From positions 35,669 to 99,668 of the forward strand of contig CAZKUQ010000001.1 of the NCBI GenBank assembly GCA_964555965.1: a stretch of DNA of 64,000 nucleotides. The letters are read 5' to 3'. Source of the stretch: an uncultured Coxiellaceae bacterium (GTDB taxonomy: Bacteria; Pseudomonadota; Gammaproteobacteria; DSM-16500). The translations under genes were made by a program, and so were the position numbers. Shown here piece after piece: positions 28,722 to 42,144 of the stretch. Every line of letters starts with the position of its first letter. Positions within the stretch are counted from its first letter, which is position 1. Under the pieces are notes generated by a model. It had not been told where the DNA came from. It ran no database searches and saw only the letters and a list, made by a program, of their open reading frames with translations.

Positions 28722-30563
28722 TTGAATAAAATTGGCGACGGAGCCCAAATGTTTTTAGCATTAACAGCAATAGAAGAATGTTGGGATACTTCGCAACCAA
28801 TGTTGTTTTTGGGCGAATGGTGTAAAGATTACAAACGAAAGCATATTTGGGAAAAACTAGATGCTTCTGTTTTGCAATCAACGAAATTAGATTATGCAAA
28901 TTCTTACGATGCCTATCTTCATGCAATGTCTATTTATGAGAAGCTATTGCCTAAAGTAGCTGATTGGCTAAATGAGCTTCATGGCACAAAACATTCATTA
29001 AAATATTGGAGGCTTCTGGCTGGCCCCTTTTTGTTTTGGTATACCCAAGTTGTTTATCATCGATTTCTTTATCTAGATGCTGCTTATCATGAATATCCAG
29101 ATCTTGAAACTTATGGATTATCACATCAAAATTTTTTGACTCCGGTAAATACTAATGAGTTTCAATGCTTTGCTGTACAAAGTGATGCTTGGAATTTACA
29201 AATTTTAACACAGTTATCGGAGCTATATTTAAAAAAGCCACTTTGCTACAAAAAAATAGAATGTCAAATCGAACAAGAGCAGCGAAAAGCGAATATTAGT
29301 GTTTCATATAAACCTCGCACAAAATTTTTATTATTAATGCTACGCTTAATTAATAAAATTTCAAGATTACAAAATGTAGGTTTACTCAGTGGTTTTTCTA
29401 CAAGAGAAATGTTCAAATTAGCGCTAACTTCAGGCTTTCGAATTCTACCAGTTCTTCCAACAAAACCAATAAATCGTGGAGAAACATTAGATAAATCAAT
29501 TTATGCAATAGATATTATCGATATAAAAAAACGTCAACAATTACTTAATATTTCTGTTGAAGATGAATTATCAAAATTAGTCATTAATACTTTACCATTT
29601 AACATACCAATCAATCTTATTGAAGGATATCATAGAGAAGTTTCAGCAAGTAAAAAATATTTTCCTTATGCATGTAAAGTGATACTACAGGAACAAGTCG
29701 CAAGTTATGATCAATATAAATTTTGGATTGGCGATCAAATAGAGAAAGGTGCAGTACTAGTTGGATATCAACATGGTGGTTGTTATGGTATGCAAAAAGC
29801 ATCTTCTGCTGAATTTTTAGAATGCCATACCAGTGATTTTTTTATTTCATGGGGCTGGGGCCCATGTAGAAATGTTTTACCAGCTCCTTTACCACATATT
29901 CATAAGTTTATTTCTCAATATGCTCGAAAAGAAAAAGCTGAAAATCTGACAGAAATCGTATGGGTTGCAACATTATACATCCGTTACGCGATAGCAATAC
30001 ATGATTGGTCGATTACAAAAAAACCGTATCTTGATTTTCAAAAAAAATTCTTTGATGCATTAGAAAAAAAAATTGCTTCTGAGATATGTATGAGACTTAA
30101 TCCATCATTTGATAATTTTAATGAAGTTAAGGAATATTTTCCTAATTTGAATATTTATTCACCTCAAAATCGCGAAAGTTTTTTTGCACATATGAGTCGT
30201 GCAAAGATAATGGTGATTGATAATCCAAATACATCATTTCTTTATGCATTAACATTTAATGTTCCCACTCTCTTATTTTGGGATAAAAATTATTGGGTAT
30301 TTCGTGATGAAGCAAAACCTTATCTAGATGGGTTAAAATTGGTAGGGATTTATCATGAGTCACCTGAGGCAGCTGCAAATATGCTGAATAAAATTTCAGA
30401 TAATCCTCATCTATGGTGGTATAGCAAACCTGTTCAATTGGCTAGACAACAATTTTGCGATCATTTTTCTAAAATATCATCAAATTATCTTCGTGATTGG
30501 TCTGATCTACTCTTAGGGTTGATAAAAAATTCTGCAGAACAAATGAGTTTAGTAAATGATTGA
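28722..30563 (+). CDS. Large hypothetical protein, candidate nonulosonic-acid transferase
   Basis: 613-aa ORF with no family I can name confidently. It may belong to the LIC12162-type putative transferases found next to NulO genes (from memory). Start is TTG 28722 or ATG 28749. Confidence 0.3.
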   Translation: MNKIGDGAQMFLALTAIEECWDTSQPMLFLGEWCKDYKRKHIWEKLDASVLQSTKLDYANSYDAYLHAMSIYEKLLPKVADWLNELHGTKHSLKYWRLLAGPFLFWYTQVVYHRFLYLDAAYHEYPDLETYGLSHQNFLTPVNTNEFQCFAVQSDAWNLQILTQLSELYLKKPLCYKKIECQIEQEQRKANISVSYKPRTKFLLLMLRLINKISRLQNVGLLSGFSTREMFKLALTSGFRILPVLPTKPINRGETLDKSIYAIDIIDIKKRQQLLNISVEDELSKLVINTLPFNIPINLIEGYHREVSASKKYFPYACKVILQEQVASYDQYKFWIGDQIEKGAVLVGYQHGGCYGMQKASSAEFLECHTSDFFISWGWGPCRNVLPAPLPHIHKFISQYARKEKAENLTEIVWVATLYIRYAIAIHDWSITKKPYLDFQKKFFDALEKKIASEICMRLNPSFDNFNEVKEYFPNLNIYSPQNRESFFAHMSRAKIMVIDNPNTSFLYALTFNVPTLLFWDKNYWVFRDEAKPYLDGLKLVGIYHESPEAAANMLNKISDNPHLWWYSKPVQLARQQFCDHFSKISSNYLRDWSDLLLGLIKNSAEQMSLVND

Positions 30564-31440
30564 AAACCATAATATATGTGATTTTAGCGTATTTAATGAA
30601 AGTTTCGAGCCATTCAACTATCTTGGTCATCGAGATAAGCAAGTTGTTAGACAATGTATCCAAAATTTTTCTGCTGTAGTTGGATTAGTAAGATCAAATG
30701 GTTCCGTTCCAAAAGTTCTTGAAACGGGCGCAGGATTATCAACCATCATTTTTTCTAAACTGCTAAATCTTTCCGGCGAACATATTAAAACAATCGATGC
30801 GTTTGCTATTGAAGCAATTCAACTTAATTCAAGAGGCACAGGTGATCATTTTAAACTGACTGAATTAAGAAATTGTGACATTGTGAAAGGAGTGACTATT
30901 GATTTTGATGAATTAGATAAATTTTATCAATCAAAAAGTAGCACGATTATGTCATTATCGAGCGATCAAGTTTTATCTAATTTAGATTTATTTTTTAATT
31001 TTAATATGGAAGATAGAAATTATAAAAAAGTGAGTCATATCATAAAATCTAATCATGTTATTTCATCAAAATTAAAAAATTATTTTATTGAAAATAGTTT
31101 GTTTGCAAACGAACTAATAAAGGCCTATCGAACAGATAACGACGAATTTAATTTTTTAAAGTCGACACAATCTAAACCGATTTTAAGAGACACATTACAA
31201 TACTATTCACCTAATATTATTTATTTAGATTCAGGCGAATTTTCTAGTGTGATTGAATTCAATATTATTGATGAATTAACTCAAGTAGACACGTTATTAA
31301 TTGTACAAGATATATTTTTTCCCAAATCGATCAAGTCATTTTTAATTTCTTCTGCCATTCTCTCGTCAAATCGATGGCGAGTATTATGGATAGATAGAAC
31401 AACACCACAAGGCATGCTTATTTGCAAAAAATATCAATAA
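30556..31440 (+). CDS. Hypothetical protein, possible class I methyltransferase fold
   Basis: The only hint is VLETGAGLSTIIF (motif I-like). The coding call rests on a long uninterrupted ORF tightly packed within the operon. Confidence 0.3.
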   Translation: MIENHNICDFSVFNESFEPFNYLGHRDKQVVRQCIQNFSAVVGLVRSNGSVPKVLETGAGLSTIIFSKLLNLSGEHIKTIDAFAIEAIQLNSRGTGDHFKLTELRNCDIVKGVTIDFDELDKFYQSKSSTIMSLSSDQVLSNLDLFFNFNMEDRNYKKVSHIIKSNHVISSKLKNYFIENSLFANELIKAYRTDNDEFNFLKSTQSKPILRDTLQYYSPNIIYLDSGEFSSVIEFNIIDELTQVDTLLIVQDIFFPKSIKSFLISSAILSSNRWRVLWIDRTTPQGMLICKKYQ

Positions 31441-31450
31441 GGGATAAGCG

Positions 31451-32059
31451 TTGAAAATAATAAAAGAAATAAAACATGAACTGTTATCTTGGAATGAGTT
31501 AATTGTTTTTGCATGGCCTGAAACATATATCGGTAGTAAGTTACGTAAAATGTATTGGGCAAAACGCTTTAATTTAAAATCGTCTTCGACCATTGCACGT
31601 ACTGCAAAATTATATGGAAATAAAGATAGTCTCTATATTGGCGAAAATTTCAATTGTGGTGAGCACGTTGAAATTAATGCTTGCACAAGCAAAGGTATCT
31701 ATATTGGTGATGATGTCTTGGTGGCTCGCGGAGCTTTTTTTCGCGCTGCAAATCATAAATTTGATCGATTAGATGTTTCCATTAATCAACAAGGTCATGA
31801 AGCTGCAGCGATGTTATTCAATGGTAAAGAATATAGCATTATCATTGAAGATAATGTTTGGATTGGTGCTAATGCGATCATTTTATCTGGCGCAAAAATT
31901 GGAACTGGATCTGTCATTGCTGCGGGTGCGGTTGTTACAAGAAAGGAGTTCCCACCTTATTCCATTATTGGCGGTAATCCTGCAAGAATCATTAAGAGTC
32001 GAAAGGATCCTAATAATATAACCAACGAAATATCGATATTACATGAAGGAAACATGTAG
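31451..32059 (+). CDS. Left-handed beta-helix (hexapeptide repeat) acetyltransferase
   Basis: [13 protein letters not shown]...[49 protein letters not shown] start. Confidence 0.75.
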
Positions 32060-32808
32060 TGAAAAATAAAATCAAACCGTCAATTGGTTCATGGCTAACA
32101 CTCGCGCATCCAGCCATTGCAGAAATCATGGCAAATGCTGGTTTTGAATGGTTAGTCATTGATCTTGAACATTCAGTTATTACTATTCGTGAAGCAGAAG
32201 AATTGATTCGCATCATTGGGCTTTCTGGTGTAAAACCATATGTCCGTCTTACAACAAATGATCCCAATCAAATTAAAAGAGTCATGGATGCAGGCGCACA
32301 AGGTATTATTGTGCCGATGATAAAATCTCGCGAAGATCTTGAGAAAGCAGCACAGGCAATGTTTTATCCTCCAAAAGGAACAAGAGGAGTTGGACTTGCA
32401 AGAGCGCAAGGATATGGTACTCAATTTGAATCATATGTAGAGAAACATGCTACTTTTGATCTCATTGCACAAGTAGAACATATCGAAACAGTTAACAAAC
32501 TTGAAGAAATTTTATCATTTCCTGATTTACAGGGATTTATTGTGGGGCCATATGATCTTTCTGGTTCAATGGGTATTCCTGGAAATTTTACACATACTGA
32601 TTTCCAATCTGCTTTGGATAAAATAAAGCTTATTTCAACAAAATATAATCATGTAAAACGAGGGATTCATCTTGTTGAACCAAATGTCGATCAGCTTAAA
32701 AAATTAATTAATGACGAATATGATTTCATCGCATATAGCTTAGATACTCGTATATTAGATGTTGGATTGAGATCAGGCATCACACAATTTAAGGAGTTAA
32801 CTACATAA
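32059..32808 (+). CDS. HpcH/HpaI-family class II (pyruvate) aldolase
   Basis: GSWLTLAHPAIAEIMANAGFEWLVIDLEHS...VRL...GAQGIIVPMI...PPKGTRG are typical HpcH/HpaI motifs. GTG start overlaps the upstream stop by 1 nt. Confidence 0.75.
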   Translation: MKNKIKPSIGSWLTLAHPAIAEIMANAGFEWLVIDLEHSVITIREAEELIRIIGLSGVKPYVRLTTNDPNQIKRVMDAGAQGIIVPMIKSREDLEKAAQAMFYPPKGTRGVGLARAQGYGTQFESYVEKHATFDLIAQVEHIETVNKLEEILSFPDLQGFIVGPYDLSGSMGIPGNFTHTDFQSALDKIKLISTKYNHVKRGIHLVEPNVDQLKKLINDEYDFIAYSLDTRILDVGLRSGITQFKELTT

Positions 32809-33590
32809 TGGAAGCTGTTGTCATTATTCCAGCGCGTATGAGTGCCACACGATTTCCTGGCAAACCACTAGCTAAAATTGCTGGATTGCCTATGATAGTA
32901 CATTGTTATTTACGAGCAAAAATGGCAAAACTCGCCAAAGATGTTTTTGTTGCAACTTGTGATAAAGAAATTTCGGATGAAATAGCACGATTTGGCGGTG
33001 AAGCAATTATGACAGCGAATAGTCATGAAAGAGCCTCCGATCGAACGGCAGAAGCAATAAGCATTCTTGAAACACAAAAGAAAAAAATTTATGATATTGT
33101 TGTTATGCTACAAGGCGATGAACCATTGATTAATCCTGATTGTATTGATCAACTGATACAACATCACGAACAACACCAAAAAACATCCGTATTTAATTTA
33201 ACACAATTTATTGGCGAAGAAGATTTCTACAGTGTTAATACAGTGAAGGTATTAACTAATTTGCAATCAGAAATATTAGCTTTTTCTCGTGAACCAATAC
33301 CATCTTCGCGTGTAAAAGGACTATTAGGATTCAAACCAAAAAAGCAATTAGGTGTCATTTCTTTTCGTCGCGAAGCATTAATTGATTTTCATCAGCTTTC
33401 TCCAACTCCTTTAGAAAAAATTGAATCAATTGATATGATGCGGTTTTTGGAATATGGACGATCGATTAAAGAAGTATTAACTGATTCATTTATGCAAGGT
33501 GTTGATACACCCGAAGATGCAAAAAAAGTTGAGTCACATATGATAACCGATGTACTTTATCAACAATATAAAAATTTAGTAAAAAATTAA
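32808..33590 (+). CDS. KdsB-like 3-deoxy-ulosonate cytidylyltransferase
   Basis: VIIPARMSATRFPGKPLA N-terminus and MLQGDEPLI motif as in CMP-Kdo synthetase. 260 aa. Confidence 0.7.
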   Translation: MEAVVIIPARMSATRFPGKPLAKIAGLPMIVHCYLRAKMAKLAKDVFVATCDKEISDEIARFGGEAIMTANSHERASDRTAEAISILETQKKKIYDIVVMLQGDEPLINPDCIDQLIQHHEQHQKTSVFNLTQFIGEEDFYSVNTVKVLTNLQSEILAFSREPIPSSRVKGLLGFKPKKQLGVISFRREALIDFHQLSPTPLEKIESIDMMRFLEYGRSIKEVLTDSFMQGVDTPEDAKKVESHMITDVLYQQYKNLVKN

Positions 33591-33598
33591 AAAATTTT

Positions 33599-34615
33599 AT
33601 GAATGAATTACGTATTGGTATTGCTGGTTTTGGTGTTGTCGGTAAACAGCGATATAAATCTATTTTAAAAATTCCTGATACGAAAATAGTCGCTGTTTCA
33701 GATAAAATATTTTTAGAAGATCATCCTAGTCAGAATGGATATCTTTGTTTAAATGATTATAAAAAAATTTATTCACAAAATTTGGATGTTCTTTTTGTTT
33801 GCTTAACAAATGACGTATCTGCAGATGCAGTAATAGCAGGATTAGAAAATGGATTACATGTTTTCTGTGAAAAGCCACCCGGAAAAAATTTAGCAGATGT
33901 TAATCGTGTTATTGAATGTAAGAAAAAATATCTAGATCAAAAATTAATGTATGGATTCAATCATCGTTATCATCATTCTGTTCAAGAAGCATTACGCATC
34001 ATTCGTTCCGGTGAGTTAGGAAACATATTAAATCTTCATGGTTTGTATGGTAAATCGAAGTTAATTACATTTAATCAAAGTGATTGGCGTACCAAAAAAT
34101 CAATTGCTGGAGGTGGTGTTTTATTAGATCAAGGTATTCACATGGTAGATCTAATGAGATTATTTGCCGGCGAATTTGTTGATATCCATAGTTTTGTTTC
34201 GAATAATTACTGGAGTTATGATGTTGAAGACAATGCTTACGCATTGATGAAAACACAAGATGGCATTGTTGGTATATTACATTCATCAGCAACGCAATGG
34301 CGACACCGATTTCATCTCGACATTAATTTAGAAAAAGGCAGTTTGATTTTAGCAGGCATATTATCGGGTTCTAAAAGTTATGGTGCAGAAACATTAACAA
34401 TTGTTCGAGCAAATCCTGATACCGATCATGGTGATCCACAAGAACAAATGATGCGATACAATCATGATCCATCATGGGATGAAGAAGTTAAAACATTTTT
34501 TTATGCTATCCGACATGATCAACCCATCGAACATGGCACAGTTACTGATGCATATCACACGATGAATTTAGTTGATCGTATTTATCAAGCAGATAAAAAT
34601 TGGCAGGTATCTTAA
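33599..34615 (+). CDS. Gfo/Idh/MocA-family oxidoreductase
   Basis: LRIGIAGFGVVGKQ Rossmann N-terminus and a CEKPPG motif. Confidence 0.7.
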   Translation: MNELRIGIAGFGVVGKQRYKSILKIPDTKIVAVSDKIFLEDHPSQNGYLCLNDYKKIYSQNLDVLFVCLTNDVSADAVIAGLENGLHVFCEKPPGKNLADVNRVIECKKKYLDQKLMYGFNHRYHHSVQEALRIIRSGELGNILNLHGLYGKSKLITFNQSDWRTKKSIAGGGVLLDQGIHMVDLMRLFAGEFVDIHSFVSNNYWSYDVEDNAYALMKTQDGIVGILHSSATQWRHRFHLDINLEKGSLILAGILSGSKSYGAETLTIVRANPDTDHGDPQEQMMRYNHDPSWDEEVKTFFYAIRHDQPIEHGTVTDAYHTMNLVDRIYQADKNWQVS

Positions 34616-34619
34616 AAAC

Positions 34620-35330
34620 ATGAAAACAAATAAACGTGCAGTGGTGACCGGCGGCACTCGTGGCATAGGCTTAGCAATTGCTACCAAATTAAAACAAGAC
34701 GGTCACGAAGTTTTAATAACCGGTACATCTGAAAATCATTCTTTAAATAAAGAATTTATTTATAAAGCAGCAAATTTTTCGTCGCTAGAAAACATCAAAG
34801 AGTTTGCGATTTTTCTTCATGATTTTTCTCCTGATATTCTGATTAATAATGCTGGAATCAATAAAATTTCCAAATTTAATGACGTGATACCAGAAGATTT
34901 TTTGCAAATACATCAAGTCAATACCACTGCGCCATTTTATTTTTGTCAGGCGGTTTTGTCCAATATGAAAAAAAATAATTGGGGTCGAATTATTAATATT
35001 ACCTCTATTTGGAGCAAGATTAGTAAATTAGGTCGTGCAGCTTATTCTGTTAGTAAATTCGGATTAGATGGGATGACAGCGGCTCTTGCTGCTGAAGTTG
35101 CTGAACATGGAATTTTAGTAAATTGCGTTGCTCCAGGCTTTATTGAAACGGATTTAACTAAAGAAACCTTAGGTGAAAACGGAATGTGTGAAATAGCAAA
35201 ACAAATTCCAATAAAACGATTAGGAAAGCCAGAAGAAATAGCTGCTTTTGTTGCTTGGCTTGTCAGCGAGGAAAACTCATATATCAGCGGACAAAATCTT
35301 GTGATTGATGGGGGATTTACACGTGTCTAA
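34620..35330 (+). CDS. Short-chain dehydrogenase/reductase (FabG-like)
   Basis: AVVTGGTRGIG, NNAG, YSVSK and PGFIETD motifs. Start moved from 34572 to ATG 34620. Confidence 0.75.
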   Translation: MKTNKRAVVTGGTRGIGLAIATKLKQDGHEVLITGTSENHSLNKEFIYKAANFSSLENIKEFAIFLHDFSPDILINNAGINKISKFNDVIPEDFLQIHQVNTTAPFYFCQAVLSNMKKNNWGRIINITSIWSKISKLGRAAYSVSKFGLDGMTAALAAEVAEHGILVNCVAPGFIETDLTKETLGENGMCEIAKQIPIKRLGKPEEIAAFVAWLVSEENSYISGQNLVIDGGFTRV

Positions 35331-36399
35331 GTTGTTAAATATCCATTCACACAAAGGAGATTATCAAGTTCATTTCCATGAAAAAATAACCATCGATTTT
35401 CTCAATGAAGAAATGCTAGAAACAAGCCACTTTATTATTGATAAATGTTTAGCTGACATATATAAAAAACAGCTAAAAAAAATTGTGAACTTGCCCTCAA
35501 CTTTATTAATAGAAGCTACAGAATATAATAAATCATTACCTCAATTTTCGATTTATATTGAACATCTAGTTAAAAATAAAATTCGCCGAAATCATCGCCT
35601 TATTGCTATTGGTGGAGGTATTATTCAAGATATCACGTGTTTTTTAGCCGCTATTTTATTACGTGGTATTGATTGGTGGTTCTTTCCTACCACATTGCTA
35701 GCCCAAGCAGATTCTTGTATTGGGTCTAAAAGTTCAGTTAATTGTGGCGATATTAAAAATATTTTGGGAACATTTACTCCTCCTAAACAAATTTTTATTT
35801 GTACAGAATTTTTGTCTTCTCTTGATTTGGTCGATGTAAAATCCGGCATTGGTGAAATGCTAAAAGTACATGCTATTAATAGTCCCATCGCTTTCGATCA
35901 AATTGCCAATGATTACGAAAAAATTTTTGTTCACCTAGAAACGATGCTGCATTATATTTTTCGTTCGCTCGAAATTAAAAAAACAATCATTGAGCAAGAT
36001 GAATTTGACACTGGAATACGTAATGTAATGAATTATGGACATACCTTTGGACATGCCATTGAATCAGCAACGAAATATCAAATCCCACATGGGATAGCGG
36101 TTACTATTGGTATGGATATGGCAAATCATATTGCTATTGAGTTTGATTATGGAGCAGAAGAACACTTCAATAGAATGCATCCTGTTCTAAAAAAGAATTA
36201 CGAGAAATTTCTTTATCAAGAAATCCCACTAGATTCATTTATACAAGCTATTTCAAAAGATAAAAAAAATACTGGCGCTAACCAGCTTGGTTTGATTCTA
36301 CCTGACAAAGCCGGAAAACCAACACGTGTCTACTTTGAGAATGATCAACGATTTCGTTCAGCTTGTGGTGATTACTTCAGCAGAGTTTGTCGTTTATGA
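35323..36399 (+). CDS. 3-dehydroquinate synthase-family sugar-phosphate cyclase-like protein
   Basis: LIAIGGGIIQDITCFLAA (NAD-binding GGG loop) and NYGHTFGHAIE...HGIAV (metal-binding His cluster) are typical of DHQS. Start could be ATG 35305 or GTG 35323, the latter preceded by GGGGGA. Confidence 0.65.
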   Translation: MSKLLNIHSHKGDYQVHFHEKITIDFLNEEMLETSHFIIDKCLADIYKKQLKKIVNLPSTLLIEATEYNKSLPQFSIYIEHLVKNKIRRNHRLIAIGGGIIQDITCFLAAILLRGIDWWFFPTTLLAQADSCIGSKSSVNCGDIKNILGTFTPPKQIFICTEFLSSLDLVDVKSGIGEMLKVHAINSPIAFDQIANDYEKIFVHLETMLHYIFRSLEIKKTIIEQDEFDTGIRNVMNYGHTFGHAIESATKYQIPHGIAVTIGMDMANHIAIEFDYGAEEHFNRMHPVLKKNYEKFLYQEIPLDSFIQAISKDKKNTGANQLGLILPDKAGKPTRVYFENDQRFRSACGDYFSRVCRL

Positions 36400-37319
36400 A
36401 TCACACAGATTTAGTTGCTGTTACCTCTCGTTCTTTTTCAAAACATTCTGTTTTGCGACGTCAATTACAAGAACGATTCTCGCAAGTTAAATTTAATGAG
36501 TCAGGTATAAAATTAACTGATAACGCTTTAATTGATTTTTTAAAAGATGCAAAACGAGCAATAATCGGATTGGAAGTTATAAATGATCATGTGCTCGATC
36601 ATCTTCCTGAGTTGAAAGTTATTTGTAAAATGGGAACAGGCATAGACAAAATTGATCTTGAGGCACTGAAACGCAGAAAAATTGCTTTTGCGCACACACC
36701 TGGTGTGAATCAACGTTCGGTTGCTGAACTTGTTTTAGGAATGATTTTTACATTATTGCGCCACTTATCAACAATCAATTCACTTATTAAGAAAGGTGAT
36801 TGGCAACAATTGAAAGGAAGACTTTTATCTGGCCAAACAATCGGAATCATTGGTTTTGGTGCAGTGGGGCGGGATTTAGCTAAGTTATTAAGTATATTTG
36901 AATGCCAGTGTTTAATATATGATGTTCAACCATGCACTCAATTAATGCCACATGTTAAACAAGTTGATTTAGACACATTGCTTAATCATTCAGAGATTGT
37001 GTCCATTCATGTTCCTTTGATTTCAGAGAATTATCATTTTATCGGTGCAAGAGAACTTGCTAAAATGAAACATCAATCCATCTTAATTAATACTGCTCGT
37101 GGGGGTCTAGTCGATGAAGATGCTTTATATGATGCGTTAACGACAGGACATTTATCAGCTGCCGCATTAGATGTATTTGAACATGAGCCAATAGTTCCGA
37201 AAAAATTGCTAGATCTGGAAAATTTTTTTGCCACCAGCCATATTGGTGGCAGTACCGAAGAGGCGATCGAAGCGATGGGAATGATGGCCATTGAAAATTT
37301 AGAAAAAATGGAAATTTAG
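36396..37319 (+). CDS. D-isomer-specific 2-hydroxyacid dehydrogenase (PGDH-like)
   Basis: IGIIGFGAVGRDLA NAD motif, NTARGGLVDE and DVFEHEP motifs. ATGA overlap with the upstream gene at ATG 36396. Confidence 0.75.
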   Translation: MNHTDLVAVTSRSFSKHSVLRRQLQERFSQVKFNESGIKLTDNALIDFLKDAKRAIIGLEVINDHVLDHLPELKVICKMGTGIDKIDLEALKRRKIAFAHTPGVNQRSVAELVLGMIFTLLRHLSTINSLIKKGDWQQLKGRLLSGQTIGIIGFGAVGRDLAKLLSIFECQCLIYDVQPCTQLMPHVKQVDLDTLLNHSEIVSIHVPLISENYHFIGARELAKMKHQSILINTARGGLVDEDALYDALTTGHLSAAALDVFEHEPIVPKKLLDLENFFATSHIGGSTEEAIEAMGMMAIENLEKMEI

Positions 37320-37334
37320 TTAATAGGGAAAGTT

Positions 37335-37961
37335 ATGCTAATCGATATGACACTCAATAATAGAGTTAATACTTTTGCTGAAATTGTCTCAAATAGTATT
37401 TGTACAAATTTATCTAATACTCCTATAGAGTTAGAATCAGCAGTAATACAAGTAATGAATGGTTTGCGAGAGCTTAGGAAACATCATCATACACTTTTCA
37501 TTGTCGGTAATGGAGGAAGTGCTGCAGTAGCAAGTCATGCATTAGTTGATTTTGTTAATGTAGCAAAAATACGTGCGCAAGTTTTACATGAAAGTTCTTT
37601 AGTAACATGCATGGCAAATGATTATGGTTATGAAAATGCTTATTCACGTGTATTATCAACTTTTATCAAACCAGAAGACATGCTGATAGCAATTAGTAGC
37701 TCTGGAAAATCTCTTAATATTTGCAATGCAGTTAATGCTGCAAAAGAAAAAAATGCAAAAGTTATTACCTTAACAGGATTTAACGAAACTAACCCACTTC
37801 GGCAATTAGGAGACATTAATTTTTGGCTGAACTCTACTGATTATGGATTTGTTGAAGTAGGGCATCAATTTATATTACATAATCTTTCCGATCGTTTGGG
37901 TGCTGAGAAAACAAGAGAGTTTTTCGATACCGAAAATAACGTGTCGGCAATTAGTGCATGA
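37335..37961 (+). CDS. SIS-domain isomerase (GmhA/phosphoheptose isomerase-like)
   Basis: LFIVGNGGSAAVASHALVDF and LIAISSSGKSLN motifs. Confidence 0.7.
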   Translation: MLIDMTLNNRVNTFAEIVSNSICTNLSNTPIELESAVIQVMNGLRELRKHHHTLFIVGNGGSAAVASHALVDFVNVAKIRAQVLHESSLVTCMANDYGYENAYSRVLSTFIKPEDMLIAISSSGKSLNICNAVNAAKEKNAKVITLTGFNETNPLRQLGDINFWLNSTDYGFVEVGHQFILHNLSDRLGAEKTREFFDTENNVSAISA

Positions 37962-38620
37962 CCAAATATATTTGGCTATCTCACGAATTAAGTGACGATA
38001 CGCCTGCTTATGGTGGTGGTGAGAGCTTAATTGTCAAATGTGAAAAACAAATTGCTGCTGGTCATAGTTGCAACTCCACTAAACTTACTTTTTCCAATCA
38101 TCTAGGCACACATGTTGATGTGCCGTATCATTTTATTGAATCAGGAAAAAAAATTAGTGATTATAAAATTGAACAGTGGCTATTTCATAAAATAAAACTT
38201 ATCGATATTCAAATAAAACCAGATGAAATTATTACACTAGCAACAATTAAATCTGTTTTAGCTGATATAGATGATGTTGATTTTTTATTAATTAAAACCG
38301 GCTTTGAGGAATATCGCCATTCTGATATTTACTGGCAAAATTCACCTGCGTTTTCAGATGAAATTGCAGCTTTTTTAAAAGAAAATTTTCCATCTATTGC
38401 TGCGATTGGTTTTGATTCAATATCTTTAACAGGTTATCAACATAGAGAATTAGGACGTGAAGCCCATAAAACTTTTTTATCACAAGATATTCGTATTTTT
38501 GAAGACATGTACTTATCGTCAATTACAAGTGATATGCATATCTCGCAAGTGATTGCTATGCCATTGCGTTTTGAAAATGCAGATGGTGCACCTTGTACAA
38601 TGATAGCTTGTGTAGGGTAG
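37958..38620 (+). CDS. Cyclase-family metal hydrolase (kynurenine formamidase-like)
   Basis: HLGTHVDVPYHF matches the HxGTHxDxPxH motif of the putative cyclase family. ATGA overlap with the upstream gene. Confidence 0.6.
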   Translation: MTKYIWLSHELSDDTPAYGGGESLIVKCEKQIAAGHSCNSTKLTFSNHLGTHVDVPYHFIESGKKISDYKIEQWLFHKIKLIDIQIKPDEIITLATIKSVLADIDDVDFLLIKTGFEEYRHSDIYWQNSPAFSDEIAAFLKENFPSIAAIGFDSISLTGYQHRELGREAHKTFLSQDIRIFEDMYLSSITSDMHISQVIAMPLRFENADGAPCTMIACVG

Positions 38621-38629: not shown

Positions 38630-39925
38630 ATGGATAATGAAAGAAGAAAAATATCTCAATTTACACTGATGCTTCAGTCGCAAACGCAATTACCGTTGTG
38701 GTCACTTGCTAATGAGAAAGTTATTTATTCTATAGCGGTGGGAGAAACGCCTATATGGGGTCCAAAAACAAGAATATTGCGCCATATCATGGCTATCGCT
38801 TATAAATTTTATCTCAGTGATTTTTTAATTTTTATTATTGGGTCTATCCAATCTTTTTTCATTTGGTGGAACGTAAAAAAAAATACGTTTAGCAAACAAA
38901 ATAAAATGGCATTCAAAAGAGTATTTGCAGGTTTTGGTGCTTCATCAGAAGAATATTTATATGAAAAATACGTTAATCAGTCACAAGACTTAACATTACG
39001 AATTAATTGGACGAAGCATAAAGGATTATCTGAGTTAGGTTGTCCATCTTTTTTATCAATCCTTTTTATGCTTACTAAAAACTCATTTGGATATACTTCA
39101 AAATTAAAACAAGCACAACAAGAAATTTCAGCAAATAGATTAGAATTTTTAACTGTATGTGCATTAAATATTGCAAATTATGCATTTTATAACTCGTACT
39201 GGAGAATAGCAAAACAGCAAGGAATTCAGGAAGCTGCTTTTGTTACGCCCGATATTTTGTCTGTTGCATGCATTGATGTTGGAATTAATTCAATTTATTT
39301 CCAGCATGGATTGTTAGCACTAAGTATTTTGATACCAAAATTTAAACGTATTGATGTATTAACGCAGGAAGAAGAAAATTATTTAAAAAATTCGTTAAAA
39401 GATGTGCAAATAAATAAAATGATTCATGTAATAAATACTAAAAACACCAAAAATAAGGTTCTTTTAGTGTTATCAATCAATGTATTTCAACAAGAGAGAT
39501 TATTAGCATGCGAATCACTTTTTCAATGGGCTAAAGAAAAAGGACTACAAATTGTGATACGGCCAACGAGTCGCGCAACGAAAGATGATTTGAAAACATT
39601 AAGTACAAATATACCAGAAGCATTAATTGATGATGTCACTGTTCCATTAGAAGAAAGCTTAAAAAAATGGAATCCCAAAATAGTTGCAGCGTGGACTTCC
39701 ACGGGACTCGTAACAGCACTTGAGCATGAATATTTGCCAATTAGTCTGTTTGATCCTTCTGTAAAAGAAGTTTGGTGTAACATGATATATCCATTAAAAG
39801 ATCGTGTTTTATTTTGGCCACGCGATAGATTATTGATTGAATCATCAATGCAATCAGAAGAAAATTACGCTGCGCAGATTTTTAATCTTCTACAGTATCA
39901 AAATCTTATTCTAGAATCTTGTTAA
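38630..39925 (+). CDS. Hypothetical membrane-associated protein, possible GT-B-like transferase
   Basis: 431-aa ORF with one N-terminal hydrophobic segment (FLIFIIGSIQSFFIWW). The C-terminal half alternates beta/alpha-like segments, with FQHG and AAWTSTGLVTALEH. I recognise no family. Confidence 0.3.
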   Translation: MDNERRKISQFTLMLQSQTQLPLWSLANEKVIYSIAVGETPIWGPKTRILRHIMAIAYKFYLSDFLIFIIGSIQSFFIWWNVKKNTFSKQNKMAFKRVFAGFGASSEEYLYEKYVNQSQDLTLRINWTKHKGLSELGCPSFLSILFMLTKNSFGYTSKLKQAQQEISANRLEFLTVCALNIANYAFYNSYWRIAKQQGIQEAAFVTPDILSVACIDVGINSIYFQHGLLALSILIPKFKRIDVLTQEEENYLKNSLKDVQINKMIHVINTKNTKNKVLLVLSINVFQQERLLACESLFQWAKEKGLQIVIRPTSRATKDDLKTLSTNIPEALIDDVTVPLEESLKKWNPKIVAAWTSTGLVTALEHEYLPISLFDPSVKEVWCNMIYPLKDRVLFWPRDRLLIESSMQSEENYAAQIFNLLQYQNLILESC

Positions 39926-40929
39926 TGAAAAAAAAATTCTTGCTATTATTTTATTTTGTGATGACCTATTTAGGTTTTATTAAATTATTTTATTGGTTAA
40001 ATCGTAATAAAAAAATAATTTTAACTTATCATAATATTATTCCCAATCATTTATTTGATGATAGTTGCCACTTGGGTGTATCGCATACTGAATCAGTATT
40101 TAAAGAACAAATAAAATTAATTTATCAGCGATTTGATCGTAATCAATGCCTTATTACTTTTGATGATGGTTATAAAAATCAACTTGAGGTTGCGGCAAAA
40201 ATTTTAAGTGATCATCATCTGCAAGGCATATTTTTTGTATCATTTCAATCGCTGTTATCAGGTCAGACGTTGACAATTGATCGAATTATGATGTGGCTAA
40301 GTTATGTTCCCGCTGGCAATTATCATATGCTAGGAAGTGATATTACTATTAATAATGCGACACGAGATTTAGTTGCAGCAAAGTTATATCAGCAATTAAT
40401 TGACGATATTAAATTATGGGATGTGATAGAAGAAAATTTAAATAACGCATTTCCATTTGATCAATTATCGATTGATGATGAACTTGTAAGATTAAGATTT
40501 AAACCGCTGACAGCGGATGATTTAGAAATACTAAAAAATGATGGCCACTTAGTTGGATCGCACAGCTGGGATCATCGACCACTGGGACGATTATCATTGG
40601 AAGAGCAAAAAGAAGATTTTTCGAAATGTATTGTTCTTGCTAATCAATATTGTAATTCTTGGCTATATAGTTATCCGTTTGGTGGTATTCAGGAAGTCTC
40701 ACCACTTACAACAAAATTATGTGCAGAATCAGGTTTTAGTTCAGCATTCATGAATATGTCGCCATCACCGGCATGGGTTGATGCTGATAGAAATTATACC
40801 TTGCCAAGATTAAGTCTTCCAAATGTAAAAAATAAATATTTATTGGATGCGAAATTATCCGGCTTTGAATCGTTTTGTAAATCAATAGTTAGGGGCATGA
40901 GATCTGAGGACTTATATGATAAAAAATAA
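39925..40929 (+). CDS. Polysaccharide deacetylase (NodB homology domain) with N-terminal TM anchor
   Basis: ITFDDGYKNQ and VGSHSWDHRPL motifs. The ORF track TTG start at 39919 is replaced by ATG 39925 (TAATG junction). Confidence 0.7.
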   Translation: MKKKFLLLFYFVMTYLGFIKLFYWLNRNKKIILTYHNIIPNHLFDDSCHLGVSHTESVFKEQIKLIYQRFDRNQCLITFDDGYKNQLEVAAKILSDHHLQGIFFVSFQSLLSGQTLTIDRIMMWLSYVPAGNYHMLGSDITINNATRDLVAAKLYQQLIDDIKLWDVIEENLNNAFPFDQLSIDDELVRLRFKPLTADDLEILKNDGHLVGSHSWDHRPLGRLSLEEQKEDFSKCIVLANQYCNSWLYSYPFGGIQEVSPLTTKLCAESGFSSAFMNMSPSPAWVDADRNYTLPRLSLPNVKNKYLLDAKLSGFESFCKSIVRGMRSEDLYDKK

Positions 40930-41161
40930 TTATAAGGAATGGTTAATAAGCTGGTTTAAAAAAAACATGGAAATATCTGTAGATGTTGTTCATCGTGATT
41001 TTTTTAAAGAAGGCTGGCTTGATTCATTTAAAACAATTGAATTAATCTCTGAAATAGAAAAAACATTTAAATTATCATTTAGTGATTCTCATTTTACGGA
41101 TGCTAGATTTTCTACCATTGATGGTCTAGCAGAAATTTTAGCTGAAATAAAAAGCAATTAA
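40916..41161 (+). CDS. Acyl/aminoacyl carrier protein-like
   Basis: 81 aa. GWLDSFKTIELISEIEK resembles the DSL/DSF phosphopantetheine attachment helix of ACP/DltC-like carriers. Sits next to an adenylating enzyme gene. Confidence 0.5.
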   Translation: MIKNNYKEWLISWFKKNMEISVDVVHRDFFKEGWLDSFKTIELISEIEKTFKLSFSDSHFTDARFSTIDGLAEILAEIKSN

Positions 41162-41172
41162 AGGAATATCAA

Positions 41173-42144
41173 ATGATTAATCCTCTTCAAAAAAAAGCAA
41201 TCAGCACTTTATTATTTCATTGTGGCAATTTGAATATAGAAGATCGCGCTCTTATTTTGTGCGACTCAAGTACACGACCGATAGCTGAAGCTTTTGTTAA
41301 TGTAGCAAATGAGGCTGATCATCAGATAAAACTGCTGGAAATACCGCCATTATCTAATCATGGTGCAGAACCGCCAGCTGATGCAGTAGATGCAATGCAG
41401 GCATCTACTTTAATACTCAGTCTTTGTAAATATTCATTAGCTCATAGTAAGGCGCGAATAAATGCTGCAAATGCAGGCGCACGTTTTCTTAGCCTACCAT
41501 TATATGATTGGAATCTTTTAGAAGATCAAAGCTTGCATATCGACTTCAAATCGCAAGCTAATTTAGTGCGAAAATTTTCGCAAGCATTTACTGACGGAAA
41601 AACTGTTCGCGTAACAACAGCTGCAGGAACGGATATCACACTTGGTATTACTGACCGGATTGGTAATTATTGTCCTGGATTTGTTGAGCGTCCGGGTGAT
41701 TTAGGTTCCCCACCTGATATCGAAGCAAATGTGTCGCCAATAGAAGATGGTTCAGAAGGAATTATTATTATTGATGGTTCAATTACGCATCCTAATTTTG
41801 GCTTGCTAGAAAAACCGATTGAACTGATCGTGCATAACGGCCGTATTGTTGAATTTCGTGGTAATAAAAATCAAGTTGCTATGCTTAATGAAATGTTTGG
41901 AACATTGGATTCGCCACGAAGAGTGTTAGCTGAATGTGGTGTAGGACTTAATCCTGCAGCGAAGTTAACTGGCATCATGTTAACTGATGAAGGCGCGTTA
42001 GGTTGTATGCATTTTGGTTTTGGTGCTAATCATACTGTTGGTGGTAAAAATAAAGTGGATTTTCATTTGGACTTTGTTTTCCATGATGCAACGCTGCAAG
42101 TAGATGGCCAAACTTTACTTCAATCTGGAATACCTCAATTATGA
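41173..42144 (+). CDS. Aminopeptidase T (M29/COG2309)-like protein
   Basis: The patterns ANVSPIEDGSEG, IIIDGSI, ECGVGLNP and GCMHFGFG resemble the thermophilic-aminopeptidase family. Tentative. Confidence 0.4.
   Translation: MINPLQKKAISTLLFHCGNLNIEDRALILCDSSTRPIAEAFVNVANEADHQIKLLEIPPLSNHGAEPPADAVDAMQASTLILSLCKYSLAHSKARINAANAGARFLSLPLYDWNLLEDQSLHIDFKSQANLVRKFSQAFTDGKTVRVTTAAGTDITLGITDRIGNYCPGFVERPGDLGSPPDIEANVSPIEDGSEGIIIIDGSITHPNFGLLEKPIELIVHNGRIVEFRGNKNQVAMLNEMFGTLDSPRRVLAECGVGLNPAAKLTGIMLTDEGALGCMHFGFGANHTVGGKNKVDFHLDFVFHDATLQVDGQTLLQSGIPQL

What the first reader, a model, noticed from the sequence alone, without database searches (positions are those of the whole stretch)
32059..38620. 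Orphan eight-gene pathway: pyruvate aldolase, KdsB-like CMP-transferase, DHQS-like cyclase, SIS isomerase, three oxidoreductases and a cyclase-family hydrolase
Eight tightly packed genes encode the following:
- an HpcH/HpaI class II aldolase
- a KdsB-type cytidylyltransferase
- a Gfo/Idh/MocA oxidoreductase
- an SDR
- a 3-dehydroquinate-synthase-family protein (GGGIIQDITCF, NYGHTFGHAIE)
- a D-2-hydroxyacid dehydrogenase
- a GmhA-type SIS isomerase
- a kynurenine-formamidase-type hydrolase (HLGTHVDVPYH)

The block contains no PEP-condensing enzyme of the KdsA or NeuB type. An aldolase beside a CMP-transferase suggests a 3-deoxy-2-ulosonic acid made by pyruvate aldol addition. DHQS-family enzymes belong to no Kdo/Neu/Leg/Pse pathway I know; elsewhere they make carbocycles from sugar phosphates (dehydroquinate, 2-deoxy-scyllo-inosose, 2-epi-5-epi-valiolone). 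The cytidylyltransferase-Gfo-SDR trio also mirrors the ptmF-legF-ptmA trio of the Leg block. This is my best candidate for an undescribed sugar-biosynthesis system, possibly a novel CMP-activated acidic or carbocyclic residue.
Basis: inference. Interest (0 to 1): 0.85.

Follow-up and report, generated by a model that had tools for sequence, protein, structure and literature searches.

The report
Conserved AroB-like CMP-sugar gene cassette
The eight genes are real. They are one copy of a widespread but biochemically uncharacterised bacterial cassette, built around a dehydroquinate-synthase-like enzyme, that probably makes a new CMP-activated acidic sugar for cell-surface glycans.

Summary
All eight co-directional genes sit at the stated coordinates, carry the stated domains and keep their catalytic residues. 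The label "orphan" is wrong.

**How common it is.** Ninety-eight loci carry the AroB-like gene (NCBIfam TIGR04425, 506 bits, cutoff 400). In the 31 with at least 5 kb on both sides:
- An SDR is present in 94%, a Gfo/Idh/MocA dehydrogenase in 90% and a 2-hydroxyacid dehydrogenase in 87%.
- A cytidylyltransferase is present in 84%, a GmhA-like SIS isomerase in 48% and the HpcH aldolase in 35%.
- NeuB is near in 3%.

Hosts include Legionella, Prochlorococcus, Chlamydiae, Verrucomicrobia, Bacteroidota, Desulfobacterota and a candidate-phylum (WWE3) bacterium. Some copies lie beside flagellin and Maf genes.

**Key features.** The AroB-like protein keeps 13 of the 14 DHQS active-site residues (the other is Leu to Met), including both carboxylate binders. 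This points to a DAHP-like keto-acid phosphate substrate, not sedoheptulose 7-phosphate. The HpcH and KdsB-like pair also occurs without the core, so the block is modular.

**Prior work.** Ten literature searches and a 2026 review of sugar phosphate cyclases give no characterisation.

**Best model (inferred).** Heptose phosphate is converted to a 2-keto-heptonate 7-phosphate. The AroB-like enzyme removes the phosphate by elimination, the SDR reduces the product, and it is CMP-activated. The product would be a new deoxy or carbocyclic Kdo-like acid. The role of HpcH is unresolved.

The parts
28722..30563 (+). LIC12162-family transferase (613 aa). Candidate transferase for the CMP-sugar. Assignment to the cassette is inferred.
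   Evidence: TIGR04331 scores 380.5 bits against a cutoff of 225. A LIC12162-family gene lies just upstream of HpcH and KdsB-like in L102, L007, L039, L053 and L019.
30556..31440 (+). 294-aa ORF of unknown family between the transferase and the acetyltransferase.
   Evidence: No significant Pfam or NCBIfam hit. Other loci carry a methyltransferase at the equivalent position: Methyltransf_21 in L102 and L019, and the 330-aa zinc-ribbon methyltransferase family in L003, L007 and L010. Membership is uncertain.
31451..32059 (+). Hexapeptide-repeat O-acetyltransferase. Possible tailoring enzyme.
   Evidence: WbbJ- and maltose-acetyltransferase-like hits. A 47%-identical homologue follows the SIS gene in the Legionella locus L003.
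32059..32808 (+). HpcH/HpaI class II pyruvate aldolase.
   Evidence: PF03328, E 6e-34. The alignment to HpaI structure 4b5s conserves IDxEH, the Arg in YVR, the Glu in QVE and the Asp in GPYDLS. It is present in 11 of 31 well-flanked loci, 10 of them with KdsB-like. It also pairs with KdsB-like in loci that lack the AroB-like core.
32808..33590 (+). KdsB/KpsU-type cytidylyltransferase (CMP-sugar synthetase).
   Evidence: TIGR00466 163.5 bits (cutoff 155.2) and NF009905 259.4 bits (cutoff 255). The best solved relative is the E. coli capsule CMP-Kdo synthetase 1gq9, 144 bits. It is the only cytidylyltransferase in the HpcH-containing loci.
33599..34615 (+). Gfo/Idh/MocA NAD(P) oxidoreductase. 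Proposed aldose-phosphate C1 dehydrogenase (inferred).
   Evidence: Pfam PF01408 and PF22725. The nearest structures are inositol dehydrogenases, glucose-fructose oxidoreductase and aldose-aldose oxidoreductase, all at 74 bits or less. Present in 90% of well-flanked loci.
34620..35330 (+). FabG-like short-chain dehydrogenase/reductase. The ORF opens at 34572, but the likely start is the ATG at 34620.
   Evidence: adh_short_C2, E 4.6e-49. It lies immediately upstream of the AroB-like gene on the same strand in 68 of 77 loci and is present in 94%. Start refined.
35323..36399 (+). AroB-like NAD+/Zn sugar-acid-phosphate phospho-lyase (TIGR04425). The ORF opens at 35305; the GenBank model starts near 35323.
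   Evidence: TIGR04425 506.5 bits (cutoff 400); aroB TIGR01357 262.7 bits, below its 305 cutoff. Thirteen of the 14 DHQS fingerprint residues are retained (L267 becomes Met); the 13 are invariant in 26 family members. P0001 is 100% identical.
36396..37319 (+). D-isomer-specific 2-hydroxyacid dehydrogenase. Proposed aldonate-phosphate 2-dehydrogenase (inferred).
   Evidence: PF02826, E 2e-54. The best NCBIfam hits are phosphoglycerate dehydrogenase (216 bits) and glyoxylate/hydroxypyruvate reductases, all below cutoff. Present in 87% of loci.
37335..37961 (+). GmhA-like single-domain SIS sugar-phosphate isomerase.
   Evidence: SIS_2. All 13 best solved relatives are phosphoheptose isomerases, at about 60 bits. 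Present in 48% of loci, usually next to the SDR.
37958..38620 (+). Cyclase-family (kynurenine-formamidase fold) metal hydrolase. Proposed lactonase (inferred, weak).
   Evidence: PF04199, E 1.2e-23. Kynurenine formamidase structures score 60 bits. Present in 13% of loci; a 6-phosphogluconolactonase/NagB-family gene (PF01182) is present in another 13%.
38630..39925 (+). 431-aa protein with faint polysialyltransferase similarity. A neighbour, probably not specific to the cassette.
   Evidence: PF07388, E 0.0014, below cutoff. Only 29 homologues were found. They occur in nonulosonic-acid loci that lack the cassette (L101, L103) as well as in L102.

Best explanation
The block is one copy of a widespread, modular operon that makes a CMP-activated, Kdo-like acidic sugar for LPS, capsule or flagellin glycans.

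**Shown.**
- The conserved core is an AroB-like enzyme with an SDR encoded directly upstream, a Gfo/Idh/MocA dehydrogenase and a D-2-hydroxyacid dehydrogenase.
- A cytidylyltransferase usually accompanies the core, and a GmhA-like SIS isomerase often does.
- No PEP-condensing enzyme is needed.
- All eight window proteins keep their catalytic residues.
- The AroB-like protein keeps the full DHQS site (13 of 14 fingerprint residues identical, Leu267 to Met), including the residues that hold the substrate carboxylate and phosphate.

**Inferred pathway.**
1. The SIS enzyme converts sedoheptulose 7-phosphate (or another ketose phosphate) to the aldose phosphate.
2. Gfo oxidises C1 to the lactone.
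3. The cyclase-family hydrolase opens the lactone. In other loci a 6-phosphogluconolactonase-like protein, or spontaneous hydrolysis, would do this.
4. The 2-hydroxyacid dehydrogenase oxidises C2, giving a hept-2-ulosonate 7-phosphate. This is a 3-hydroxy analogue of DAHP.
5. The AroB-like enzyme removes the phosphate by DHQS chemistry: NAD+ oxidation, beta-elimination, then re-reduction.
6. The SDR reduces the ketone that is exposed.
7. The KdsB-type enzyme makes the CMP donor. LIC12162-, TIGR04326- or Maf-type transferases would use it.

**Predicted product.** A C7H12O7 acid, either 7-deoxy-hept-2-ulosonic acid or its carbocyclic aldol isomer.

**Unresolved.** HpcH and KdsB-like form a separable module that looks like a pyruvate-dependent replacement for KdsA. 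How it connects with the core in the window is not resolved.
For: **Gene content and residues.**
- Family assignments.
- DHQS residues: alignments to five solved DHQSs, invariance in 26 family members, and mapping onto A. nidulans numbering.
- HpcH residues.

**Synteny.**
- Conserved order across named genomes.
- Gene neighbourhoods with Pfam labels.
- Frequencies over 98 loci.

**Support for individual steps.**
- SIS relatives are all phosphoheptose isomerases.
- Gfo relatives include aldose C1 and inositol dehydrogenases.
- The best 2HADH hits are dehydrogenases of phosphorylated hydroxy acids.
- Two unrelated hydrolase types occupy the accessory slot.
- Loci such as L016, L018 and L046 have the core plus a cytidylyltransferase but no aldolase or NeuB. 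The core alone must therefore yield the CMP-activatable acid.

**Destination of the product.**
- Maf and flagellin genes are adjacent in L016.
- LIC12162 and TIGR04326 transferase-like genes are adjacent in many loci.

**Separation from neighbouring pathways.**
- NeuB lies within 8 kb in only 1 of 31 loci.
- HpcH-containing loci have a single cytidylyltransferase.
Against: - No enzyme was assayed, and the step order is deduced from family chemistry only.
- The model gives HpcH no necessary role, yet HpcH is present here and in 35% of loci, always inside the same tight block.
- SIS is found in only about half of the loci and a lactonase candidate in about a quarter.
- The Gfo, 2HADH, SIS and cyclase proteins all score below every NCBIfam equivalog cutoff, so their substrates are open.
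- A CMP-linked carbocycle would be a chemically awkward glycosyl donor.
- HAD phosphatase homologues occur in two core-containing loci (L072, L041). The AroB-like enzyme is therefore not simply a substitute for a phosphatase.
- The KdsB-like protein passes the kdsB equivalog cutoff, so it could simply make CMP-Kdo.
Confidence: 0.4

Rival explanations
1. HpcH-first pathway. HpcH condenses pyruvate (or hydroxypyruvate made by the 2HADH) with a tetrose 4-phosphate. This gives DAHP, or a stereoisomer or 3-hydroxy analogue of it, which is the substrate of the AroB-like enzyme. In loci without HpcH, housekeeping DAHP is used. Gfo, SDR and 2HADH then tailor the product before CMP activation.
For: - HpcH is catalytically intact.
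- HpcH is always contiguous with KdsB-like and the core, with a single cytidylyltransferase.
- The AroB-like site is indistinguishable from a DAHP-binding site.
- HpcH and KdsB-like with a HAD phosphatase occur alone in L104 and L105. This fits an aldolase product that is a sugar-acid phosphate.
Against: - The model does not explain the GmhA-like SIS isomerase, which needs a phosphosugar and so must act before phosphate removal.
- It does not explain a 2-hydroxyacid dehydrogenase in the 65% of loci that lack HpcH.
- Gfo, 2HADH and SIS are more tightly linked to the AroB-like gene than HpcH is.
Confidence: 0.2
2. Two independent pathways lie side by side. HpcH and KdsB-like make a CMP-Kdo-like sugar. 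The Gfo, SDR, AroB-like, 2HADH, SIS and cyclase genes make a quinate-like cyclitol carboxylate. This cyclitol is used as a non-glycosidic substituent or small molecule and is not CMP-activated.
For: - The HpcH and KdsB-like pair exists without the core.
- L072 carries a full HpcH, KdsB-like, 2HADH and HAD set directly next to the core.
- Default DHQS chemistry gives a carbocycle. This rests on established knowledge of DHQS.
- An ACP and AMP-ligase block lies downstream in the window.
Against: - Some cytidylyltransferase accompanies the core in 26 of 31 loci, including loci with no HpcH.
- The ACP and ligase block is absent from the closest relative, L102, and from other loci.
- Core genes are interleaved with HpcH and KdsB-like in L020, L022, L023 and L028.
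Confidence: 0.12
3. The cassette serves the flanking pseudaminic or legionaminic acid pathways, for example by supplying a precursor or an N-acyl or O-linked decoration of the nonulosonic acid.
For: - In the window and in L102 the block sits between the Pse and Leg clusters.
- L006, L049, L078, L082 and L096 have a NeuB homologue nearby.
- L016 has PseB- and PseC-like genes adjacent.
Against: - NeuB lies within 8 kb in only 1 of 31 well-flanked loci.
- The cassette has its own cytidylyltransferase. The window also has separate PseF-like and LegF-like genes.
Confidence: 0.08
4. These are ordinary housekeeping genes (aroB, kdsB, gmhA and so on) that happen to lie in an LPS locus.
For: - The KdsB-like protein passes the kdsB equivalog cutoff.
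- An HldE-like ADP-heptose gene lies in the same window.
Against: - The AroB-like protein fails the aroB cutoff and passes TIGR04425.
- GmhA scores 82.7 bits against a cutoff of 209.
- The same set recurs as a block in Prochlorococcus, Chlamydiae, WWE3 and others, inside glycan loci.
- A close relative (L102) has lost the SDR and AroB-like genes by deletion. An essential aroB would not be expected to tolerate this.
Confidence: 0.03

Closest known systems
Kdo pathway: KdsD (SIS isomerase), KdsA (PEP condensation), KdsC (HAD phosphatase), KdsB (CMP activation)
   Same: The logic is the same: a sugar-phosphate isomerase, formation of a 2-keto sugar-acid phosphate, removal of the phosphate, then CMP activation by a KdsB-type enzyme. 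The window's cytidylyltransferase passes the KdsB models and is closest to KpsU.
   Different: - There is no KdsA. A class II pyruvate aldolase is present instead, or no condensing enzyme at all in 65% of loci.
- The SIS protein is GmhA-like, not KdsD-like.
- An AroB-like phospho-lyase with an SDR stands where the phosphatase would be.
- Two extra dehydrogenases, Gfo and 2HADH, are present.
3-dehydroquinate synthase (AroB) and aminoDHQ synthase (RifG type)
   Same: - Same fold.
- About 35-40% identity to solved DHQSs in the aligned regions, estimated by eye from the printed alignments and not computed.
- Thirteen of the 14 active-site residues are identical, including the Zn ligands and the phosphate and carboxylate binders; Leu267 is Met.
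- Like aminoDHQS, it is a DHQS paralogue recruited outside the shikimate pathway. This comparison rests on my own knowledge.
   Different: - It scores below the aroB equivalog cutoff (262.7 bits against 305).
- It forms its own family, TIGR04425.
- It is always embedded in glycan loci next to an SDR, never with shikimate genes.
- It has family-specific invariant residues: Q108, C112, W124, C138, S141 and the EQDEFD motif.
Sedoheptulose-7-phosphate and hexose-phosphate cyclases (EEVS, DDGS, EVS, DOIS, EboD)
   Same: They are members of the same sugar phosphate cyclase superfamily, and they too have been recruited into specialised metabolism.
   Different: - They are more distant. PDB scores are DOIS 93, ValA 73 and DDGS 63 bits, against 103-154 bits for DHQSs.
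- The DHQS carboxylate binders are retained here. To my knowledge they vary in the sedoheptulose-7-phosphate cyclases.
- A 2026 review of the superfamily lists no glycan-associated member.
Legionaminic acid cluster trio PtmF (Gfo) - LegF/PtmB (CTP_transf_3) - PtmA (SDR)
   Same: The same three protein families lie adjacent to one another. The window has a genuine copy of this trio at 48093-50532.
   Different: - Identity between the two trios is only 24-29%.
- The cassette has no LegB, LegC, LegG, LegH or LegI.
- NeuB is rarely nearby.
Aldose-phosphate to aldonate-phosphate to 2-keto-aldonate-phosphate sequences (Epd/PdxB in PLP synthesis; Zwf/Pgl and the KguD reaction)
   Same: The proposed sequence of Gfo, lactonase and 2HADH uses the same chemistry. 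PdxB, SerA and KguD belong to the same 2-Hacid_dh family. This rests on my own knowledge plus the family hits.
   Different: The substrate would be a heptose phosphate, and the C1 dehydrogenase belongs to a different family. No equivalog-level match exists to any of these enzymes.

Membership tests
TIGR04425 AroB-related putative sugar phosphate phospholyase (cyclizing) | Whole-protein score at or above the curated cutoff of 400 bits | tested here: met
   506.5 bits, covering model positions 1-347 of 348.
3-dehydroquinate synthase AroB (TIGR01357) | Score at or above the equivalog cutoff of 305 bits | tested here: not met
   262.7 bits.
3-dehydroquinate synthase AroB (TIGR01357) | The 14 active-site residues: Zn ligands E194, H271, H287; phosphate binders K152, N162, N268, H275, K356, R130; carboxylate binders K250, R264; and D146, K197, L267 | tested here: met
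   Thirteen of 14 are identical and L267 becomes Met. The 13 are invariant in 26 family members. The numbering comes from an A. nidulans sequence written from memory whose residues fall at the published positions. The same motifs align with five solved DHQSs.
3-dehydroquinate synthase AroB (TIGR01357) | Shikimate-pathway role and context, and conversion of DAHP to DHQ | not testable with these tools
   The context is always a glycan locus. Activity on DAHP is untested.
Sedoheptulose-7-phosphate cyclases (EEVS/DDGS/EVS) | Fingerprint substitutions at the DHQS carboxylate-binding positions (Kean et al. 2014, as cited) | tested here: not met
   The K250 and R264 equivalents (K225, R239) are retained and invariant. 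ValA scores 73 bits and DDGS 63 bits, against up to 154 bits for DHQS. The identity of the substituted positions rests on memory, because the primary paper was not available.
CMP-Kdo synthetase KdsB/KpsU | Score above the TIGR00466 cutoff (155.2) and the NF009905 cutoff (255) | tested here: met
   163.5 and 259.4 bits. The best solved relative is KpsU 1gq9.
CMP-Kdo synthetase KdsB/KpsU | The substrate is Kdo, and the gene is the genome's LPS-core kdsB | not testable with these tools
   Orthologues (44-52% identity) always sit beside HpcH in variable glycan loci. Whether the source genome has another kdsB cannot be seen from the window.
HpcH/HpaI class II pyruvate aldolase | Pfam PF03328, plus the metal ligands (Glu149, Asp175), the catalytic Arg70 and His45 of HpaI | tested here: met
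   117.7 bits against a cutoff of 25. All four positions are conserved in the alignment to 4b5s. The protein scores below all four equivalog cutoffs (HpaI, GarL and RhmA models), so the substrate is unknown.
Phosphoheptose isomerase GmhA (TIGR00441) | Score at or above the cutoff of 209.45 bits | tested here: not met
   82.7 bits. The nearest structures are all GmhA, at only about 60 bits. By eye, the GNGGS...H and ExxHxxxxH motifs are kept, and Asp replaces the catalytic Glu65.
Nonulosonic acid (Neu/Leg/Pse) pathway | A NeuB-type PEP condensing enzyme in the gene set | tested here: not met
   None lies in 32059-38620. NeuB is within 8 kb of the AroB-like gene in 1 of 31 loci.

The most novel reading that the evidence does not exclude
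The AroB-like enzyme completes the DHQS reaction on a hept-2-ulosonate 7-phosphate. The cassette would then produce a CMP-activated carbocyclic 'carba-ulosonic' acid, a hydroxylated quinate-type cyclitol carboxylate. Dedicated LIC12162-, TIGR04326- or Maf-type transferases would install it on LPS or flagellin. This would be a pseudo-sugar in bacterial surface glycans of many phyla, attached by a non-classical transfer mechanism.
Probability: 0.2. Interest if true: 0.9.

Novelty: new variant of a known kind. Interest (0 to 1): 0.68.

Why it matters
If the model holds, a whole class of bacterial surface sugars has been missed. It would consist of C7 deoxy or carbocyclic Kdo-like acids, made without PEP condensation by a recruited shikimate-pathway enzyme.

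The cassette occurs in ecologically and medically relevant lineages: Prochlorococcus, SUP05 relatives (for the HpcH module), Legionella, Coxiellaceae, Chlamydiae, Verrucomicrobia and a candidate-phylum (WWE3) bacterium. It sometimes lies beside flagellin and Maf genes.

- The product would be a new antigen and a possible phage receptor.
- It would add a new substrate class for cytidylyltransferases and sialyltransferase-like enzymes.
- It would be a new reaction context for DHQS chemistry.
- Thousands of '3-dehydroquinate synthase' annotations would need correction.

Tried and rejected
1. **Literature.** Ten full-text searches combined dehydroquinate synthase/AroB, KdsB/cytidylyltransferase, HpcH/aldolase, O-antigen, flagellin glycosylation/Maf, nonulosonic/legionaminic acid, sugar phosphate cyclase and TIGR04425. 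None described this gene set. The prasinovirus DHQS mention and the ebo cluster are different systems. The primary papers on the cyclase fingerprint were not available.
2. **Plasmids and viruses.** A protein search of plasmids and a pattern scan of viral contigs with the AroB-like protein found nothing.
3. **The 620-aa neighbours as LIC12162 homologues.** Pfam gave no hits, even for the window's own LIC12162 protein, and phmmer gave almost none. NCBIfam then placed most of them in TIGR04326 instead.
4. **The 431-aa downstream protein as the cassette's transferase.** Rejected, because its few homologues also sit in loci without the cassette.
5. **The AroB-like enzyme as a replacement for a HAD phosphatase.** Not supported as a rule, because HAD homologues occur in the core-containing loci L072 and L041.
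6. **The cassette trio as a recent duplicate of the Leg-block trio.** Rejected, at 24-29% identity.
7. **Not run.** Structure prediction and fold search, because sequence matches to solved homologues were already unambiguous.

Full report
**Observation.** The window (33% G+C) carries eight tightly packed + strand ORFs at exactly the coordinates given.
- The cytidylyltransferase scores 163.5 bits on TIGR00466 (cutoff 155.2) and 259.4 bits on NF009905 (cutoff 255).
- With the likeliest starts (SDR 34620, DHQS-like 35323, 2HADH 36396) the junctions between genes run from -8 to +15 nt.
- Promoter-like and terminator-like sites are not enriched over shuffled sequence.
- No KdsA- or NeuB-type gene lies inside the block.

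**Context.** The window is a very large LPS/glycan locus from the uncultured bacterium contig ACD_46C00181, which is 100% identical to P0001 and P0121.
- Upstream lie a PglF-like dehydratase, a Wzy_C protein, an HldE-like gene and an ABC transporter.
- Next comes a pseudaminic acid block with PseB/C/F-like genes, a Pse-associated methylase, WbuX/HisH/WbuZ amidotransferase genes, a formyltransferase, a deacetylase and PseI. A LIC12162-family transferase follows.
- Downstream of the block lie a 431-aa protein, a deacetylase, an ACP, an AMP-ligase and an aminotransferase.
- A complete legionaminic acid block follows, with its own Gfo, cytidylyltransferase and SDR trio, and then glycosyltransferases.

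**The DHQS-like protein.**
- It passes the curated model TIGR04425, 'AroB-related putative sugar phosphate phospholyase (cyclizing)', a hypothetical equivalog, at 506.5 bits against a cutoff of 400. It fails the aroB equivalog at 262.7 bits against 305.
- Its nearest solved relatives are genuine DHQSs (H. pylori 3clh at 154 bits, others 103-142). DOIS (93), the EEVS ValA (73) and DDGS (63) rank lower.
- Alignments to five solved DHQSs and to an A. nidulans DHQS sequence written from memory map the 14 published active-site residues. The remembered sequence places all of them at their published numbers.
- Thirteen are identical: R130, D146, K152, N162, E194, K197, K250, R264, N268, H271, H275, H287 and K356. 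Leu267 becomes Met.
- The thirteen are invariant in an alignment of 26 family members that share 54-69% identity with the window protein.
- From established knowledge, K250 and R264 hold the DAHP carboxylate. Their retention points to a 2-keto sugar-acid 7-phosphate substrate, not sedoheptulose 7-phosphate.
- Family-specific invariant residues are Q108, C112, W124, C138, S141 and the EQDEFD motif. Their meaning is unknown.

**The other enzymes.** The aldolase keeps the HpaI positions His45, Arg70, Glu149 and Asp175. By eye the remaining proteins also keep their catalytic motifs in the translations:
- the 2HADH Arg/Glu/His triad;
- the SDR TGxxxGxG and YxxxK motifs;
- the Gfo EKP motif;
- the cyclase HxGTHxDxPxH motif;
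- the KdsB PARxxSxR and GDEP motifs.

**Not an orphan.** A scan of one genome per species found the DHQS-like gene with the same neighbours in many lineages: two gammaproteobacterial MAGs, a Legionella sp., a Hyphomicrobiales MAG, Opitutaceae and Lacunisphaera, a WWE3 candidate-phylum bacterium, Prochlorococcus AG-412-I05 and a Chryseobacterium MAG. Neighbourhoods with precomputed Pfam labels add Ca. Desulfarcum, a Chlamydiae MAG and several large metagenomic contigs. A metagenome scan added 80 more loci.

I built profiles of each partner family and scanned all 100 loci then held, 98 of which carry the DHQS-like gene. The 31 non-duplicate loci with at least 5 kb on both sides gave these frequencies within 8 kb:

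| Partner | Frequency |
|---|---|
| SDR | 94% |
| Gfo | 90% |
| 2HADH | 87% |
| Any CTP_transf_3 | 84% |
| KdsB-like | 52% |
| SIS | 48% |
| HpcH | 35% (10 of 11 with KdsB-like) |
| TIGR04326-type 620-aa protein | 23% |
| LIC12162 family | 16% |
| Class I/II aminotransferase plus a second Gfo | 16% |
| Cyclase-family hydrolase | 13% |
| 6-phosphogluconolactonase/NagB-family protein | 13% |
| Maf | 6% |
| NeuB | 3% |

- The SDR lies immediately upstream of the DHQS-like gene on the same strand in 68 of 77 loci.
- The sample is not phylogenetically de-replicated.

**Variants and modularity.** Three recurring forms appear:
- HpcH (often with a zinc-ribbon methyltransferase), KdsB-like and the core, as in the window.
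- Aminotransferase, a second Gfo, KdsB-like and the core.
- The core with a NeuA-like cytidylyltransferase and no aldolase. An example is L046, which has a cytidylyltransferase-cupin fusion.

Further observations:
- In L016 and L017 the cassette lies beside flagellin, FlgK, FliW and a Maf glycosyltransferase.
- The ~620-aa neighbours are TIGR04326 'surface carbohydrate biosynthesis' proteins.
- The HpcH and KdsB-like pair (60-70% and 44-52% identity to the window's) also occurs without any DHQS-like gene in Ca. Pseudothioglobus, Amylibacter and other marine contigs. There it sits with a different 2HADH subfamily, and in L104 and L105 also with a HAD phosphatase.
- HpcH-containing core loci have only one cytidylyltransferase, and the genes are interleaved. 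In the window the two modules therefore most likely serve one product.
- The closest relative of the window locus, L102 (70-85% identity, same order), has lost the SDR and most of the DHQS-like gene. An 84-aa C-terminal remnant is left.

**Mechanism.** Only one linear order fits the known chemistry of all core families.
- A SIS isomerase needs a phosphosugar, so it must act before the phosphate is removed. Its solved relatives are all phosphoheptose isomerases.
- A 2-hydroxyacid dehydrogenase needs a C2-H hydroxy or keto acid. Its best hits are dehydrogenases of phosphorylated hydroxy acids.
- Gfo-family enzymes commonly oxidise aldose C1. This rests on established knowledge.
- Two unrelated hydrolases occupy an optional slot that fits a lactonase.

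I therefore propose the sequence heptulose/heptose 7-phosphate, then lactone, then heptonate 7-phosphate, then hept-2-ulosonate 7-phosphate. The AroB-like enzyme then eliminates the phosphate, the SDR reduces the exposed ketone, and the product is CMP-activated. Loci that have the core and a cytidylyltransferase but no condensing enzyme support the idea that the core alone makes the activatable acid.

Every step is inferred. The product could be 7-deoxy-hept-2-ulosonic acid or its carbocyclic aldol isomer, which is the default outcome of DHQS chemistry. The model does not place HpcH. The rival model, in which HpcH makes a DAHP-like substrate from pyruvate and a tetrose phosphate, explains HpcH but not SIS or 2HADH.

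**Comparison with known systems.** The cassette parallels the Kdo pathway step for step: isomerase, keto-acid phosphate formation, phosphate removal and KdsB. Different enzymes fill the middle steps.
- It is not a Neu/Leg/Pse pathway, because it has no NeuB.
- It is not a shikimate gene set.
- It does not match the sedoheptulose-7-phosphate cyclases by fingerprint or by score.
- Ten literature searches found no description of it.
- A February 2026 review of cyclitol biosynthesis lists MIPS, DOIS, DDGS, EEVS, EVS, DHQS and EboD/DEIS as the sugar phosphate cyclases. It names no glycan-linked member.

**Verdict.** The 'orphan eight-gene' framing should be replaced by 'one variant of a widespread, modular, uncharacterised cassette already flagged by a hypothetical-equivalog model'. 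I rate it a new variant of a known kind (CMP-ulosonic-acid-type biosynthesis), with interest 0.68. The carbocyclic reading has about 0.2 probability and would be far more striking.

Noticed in passing
L102:7032-9963 (groundwater contig, closest relative of the window locus): The gene order matches the window at 70-85% amino-acid identity, but the SDR and most of the AroB-like gene are deleted. An 84-aa ORF (8048-8302) is the C-terminal remnant of the AroB-like gene. The cyclase-family gene and the ACP/ligase block are also absent. The cassette may be decaying or being remodelled in this relative.
   Followed up: partly
window 39919-44883: A block lies between the cassette and the Leg genes. 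It holds a polysaccharide deacetylase, an 81-aa carrier protein (PP-binding, 40916-41161), a 323-aa protein of unknown family, an AMP-dependent ligase and a class I/II aminotransferase. It looks like machinery for an unusual acyl or aminoacyl decoration. It is absent from the close relative L102.
   Followed up: partly
window 20062-28695: A pseudaminic acid block with extras: a Pse-associated methylase, a WbuX/HisH/WbuZ amidotransferase set (acetamidino formation), a formyltransferase-like gene and a PIG-L-type deacetylase. This suggests a heavily modified Pse derivative. A second HisF-like gene lies at 18188-18958.
   Followed up: no
window 45812-54523: A complete legionaminic acid cluster: LegB, LegC, PtmF-like Gfo, LegF-like cytidylyltransferase, PtmA-like SDR, NeuC/LegG, NeuB/LegI, NeuD/LegH and PtmE. 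One locus therefore encodes three different CMP-sugar pathways.
   Followed up: partly
L104:546-4427 and L104:15520-18678 (Ca. Pseudothioglobus singularis contig): Beside an HpcH and KdsB-like pair sits a GHMP kinase, HAD, SIS, NTP-transferase and transaldolase set. From memory, it resembles the lincosamide octose genes LmbP/K/N/O/R. A 1052-aa fusion of NeuB, CTP_transf_3 and GT2 domains lies further along.
   Followed up: no
L106:5434-10541: PEP mutase (fused to a cytidylyltransferase-like domain), phosphonopyruvate decarboxylase and Fe-ADH genes lie directly upstream of an HpcH and KdsB-like pair. This hints at a phosphonate-decorated ulosonic acid.
   Followed up: no
L016:1485-16581: The cassette core lies between flagellar genes (FlgK, flagellin, CsrA, FliW) and a Maf (MptE-like) glycosyltransferase. 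PseB- and PseC-like genes are present, but no NeuB lies within 10 kb.
   Followed up: partly
window 38630-39925: A 431-aa protein with only 29 detectable homologues in 5.8 billion sequences and a faint polysialyltransferase-like C-terminus. Its homologues sit in nonulosonic-acid loci. It may be a rare CMP-sugar transferase family.
   Followed up: partly
L046:13082-15916: A cytidylyltransferase fused to a cupin domain, followed by an SDR and a DUF4862 protein, lies directly after the core. This is a third type of activation and tailoring set for the same core.
   Followed up: no
window 11851-14498: An HldE-like bifunctional kinase/adenylyltransferase (PfkB + CTP_transf_like) and an adjacent epimerase-family gene lie in the same locus. 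An ADP-heptose pathway, and hence heptose 7-phosphate, would be available here.
   Followed up: no
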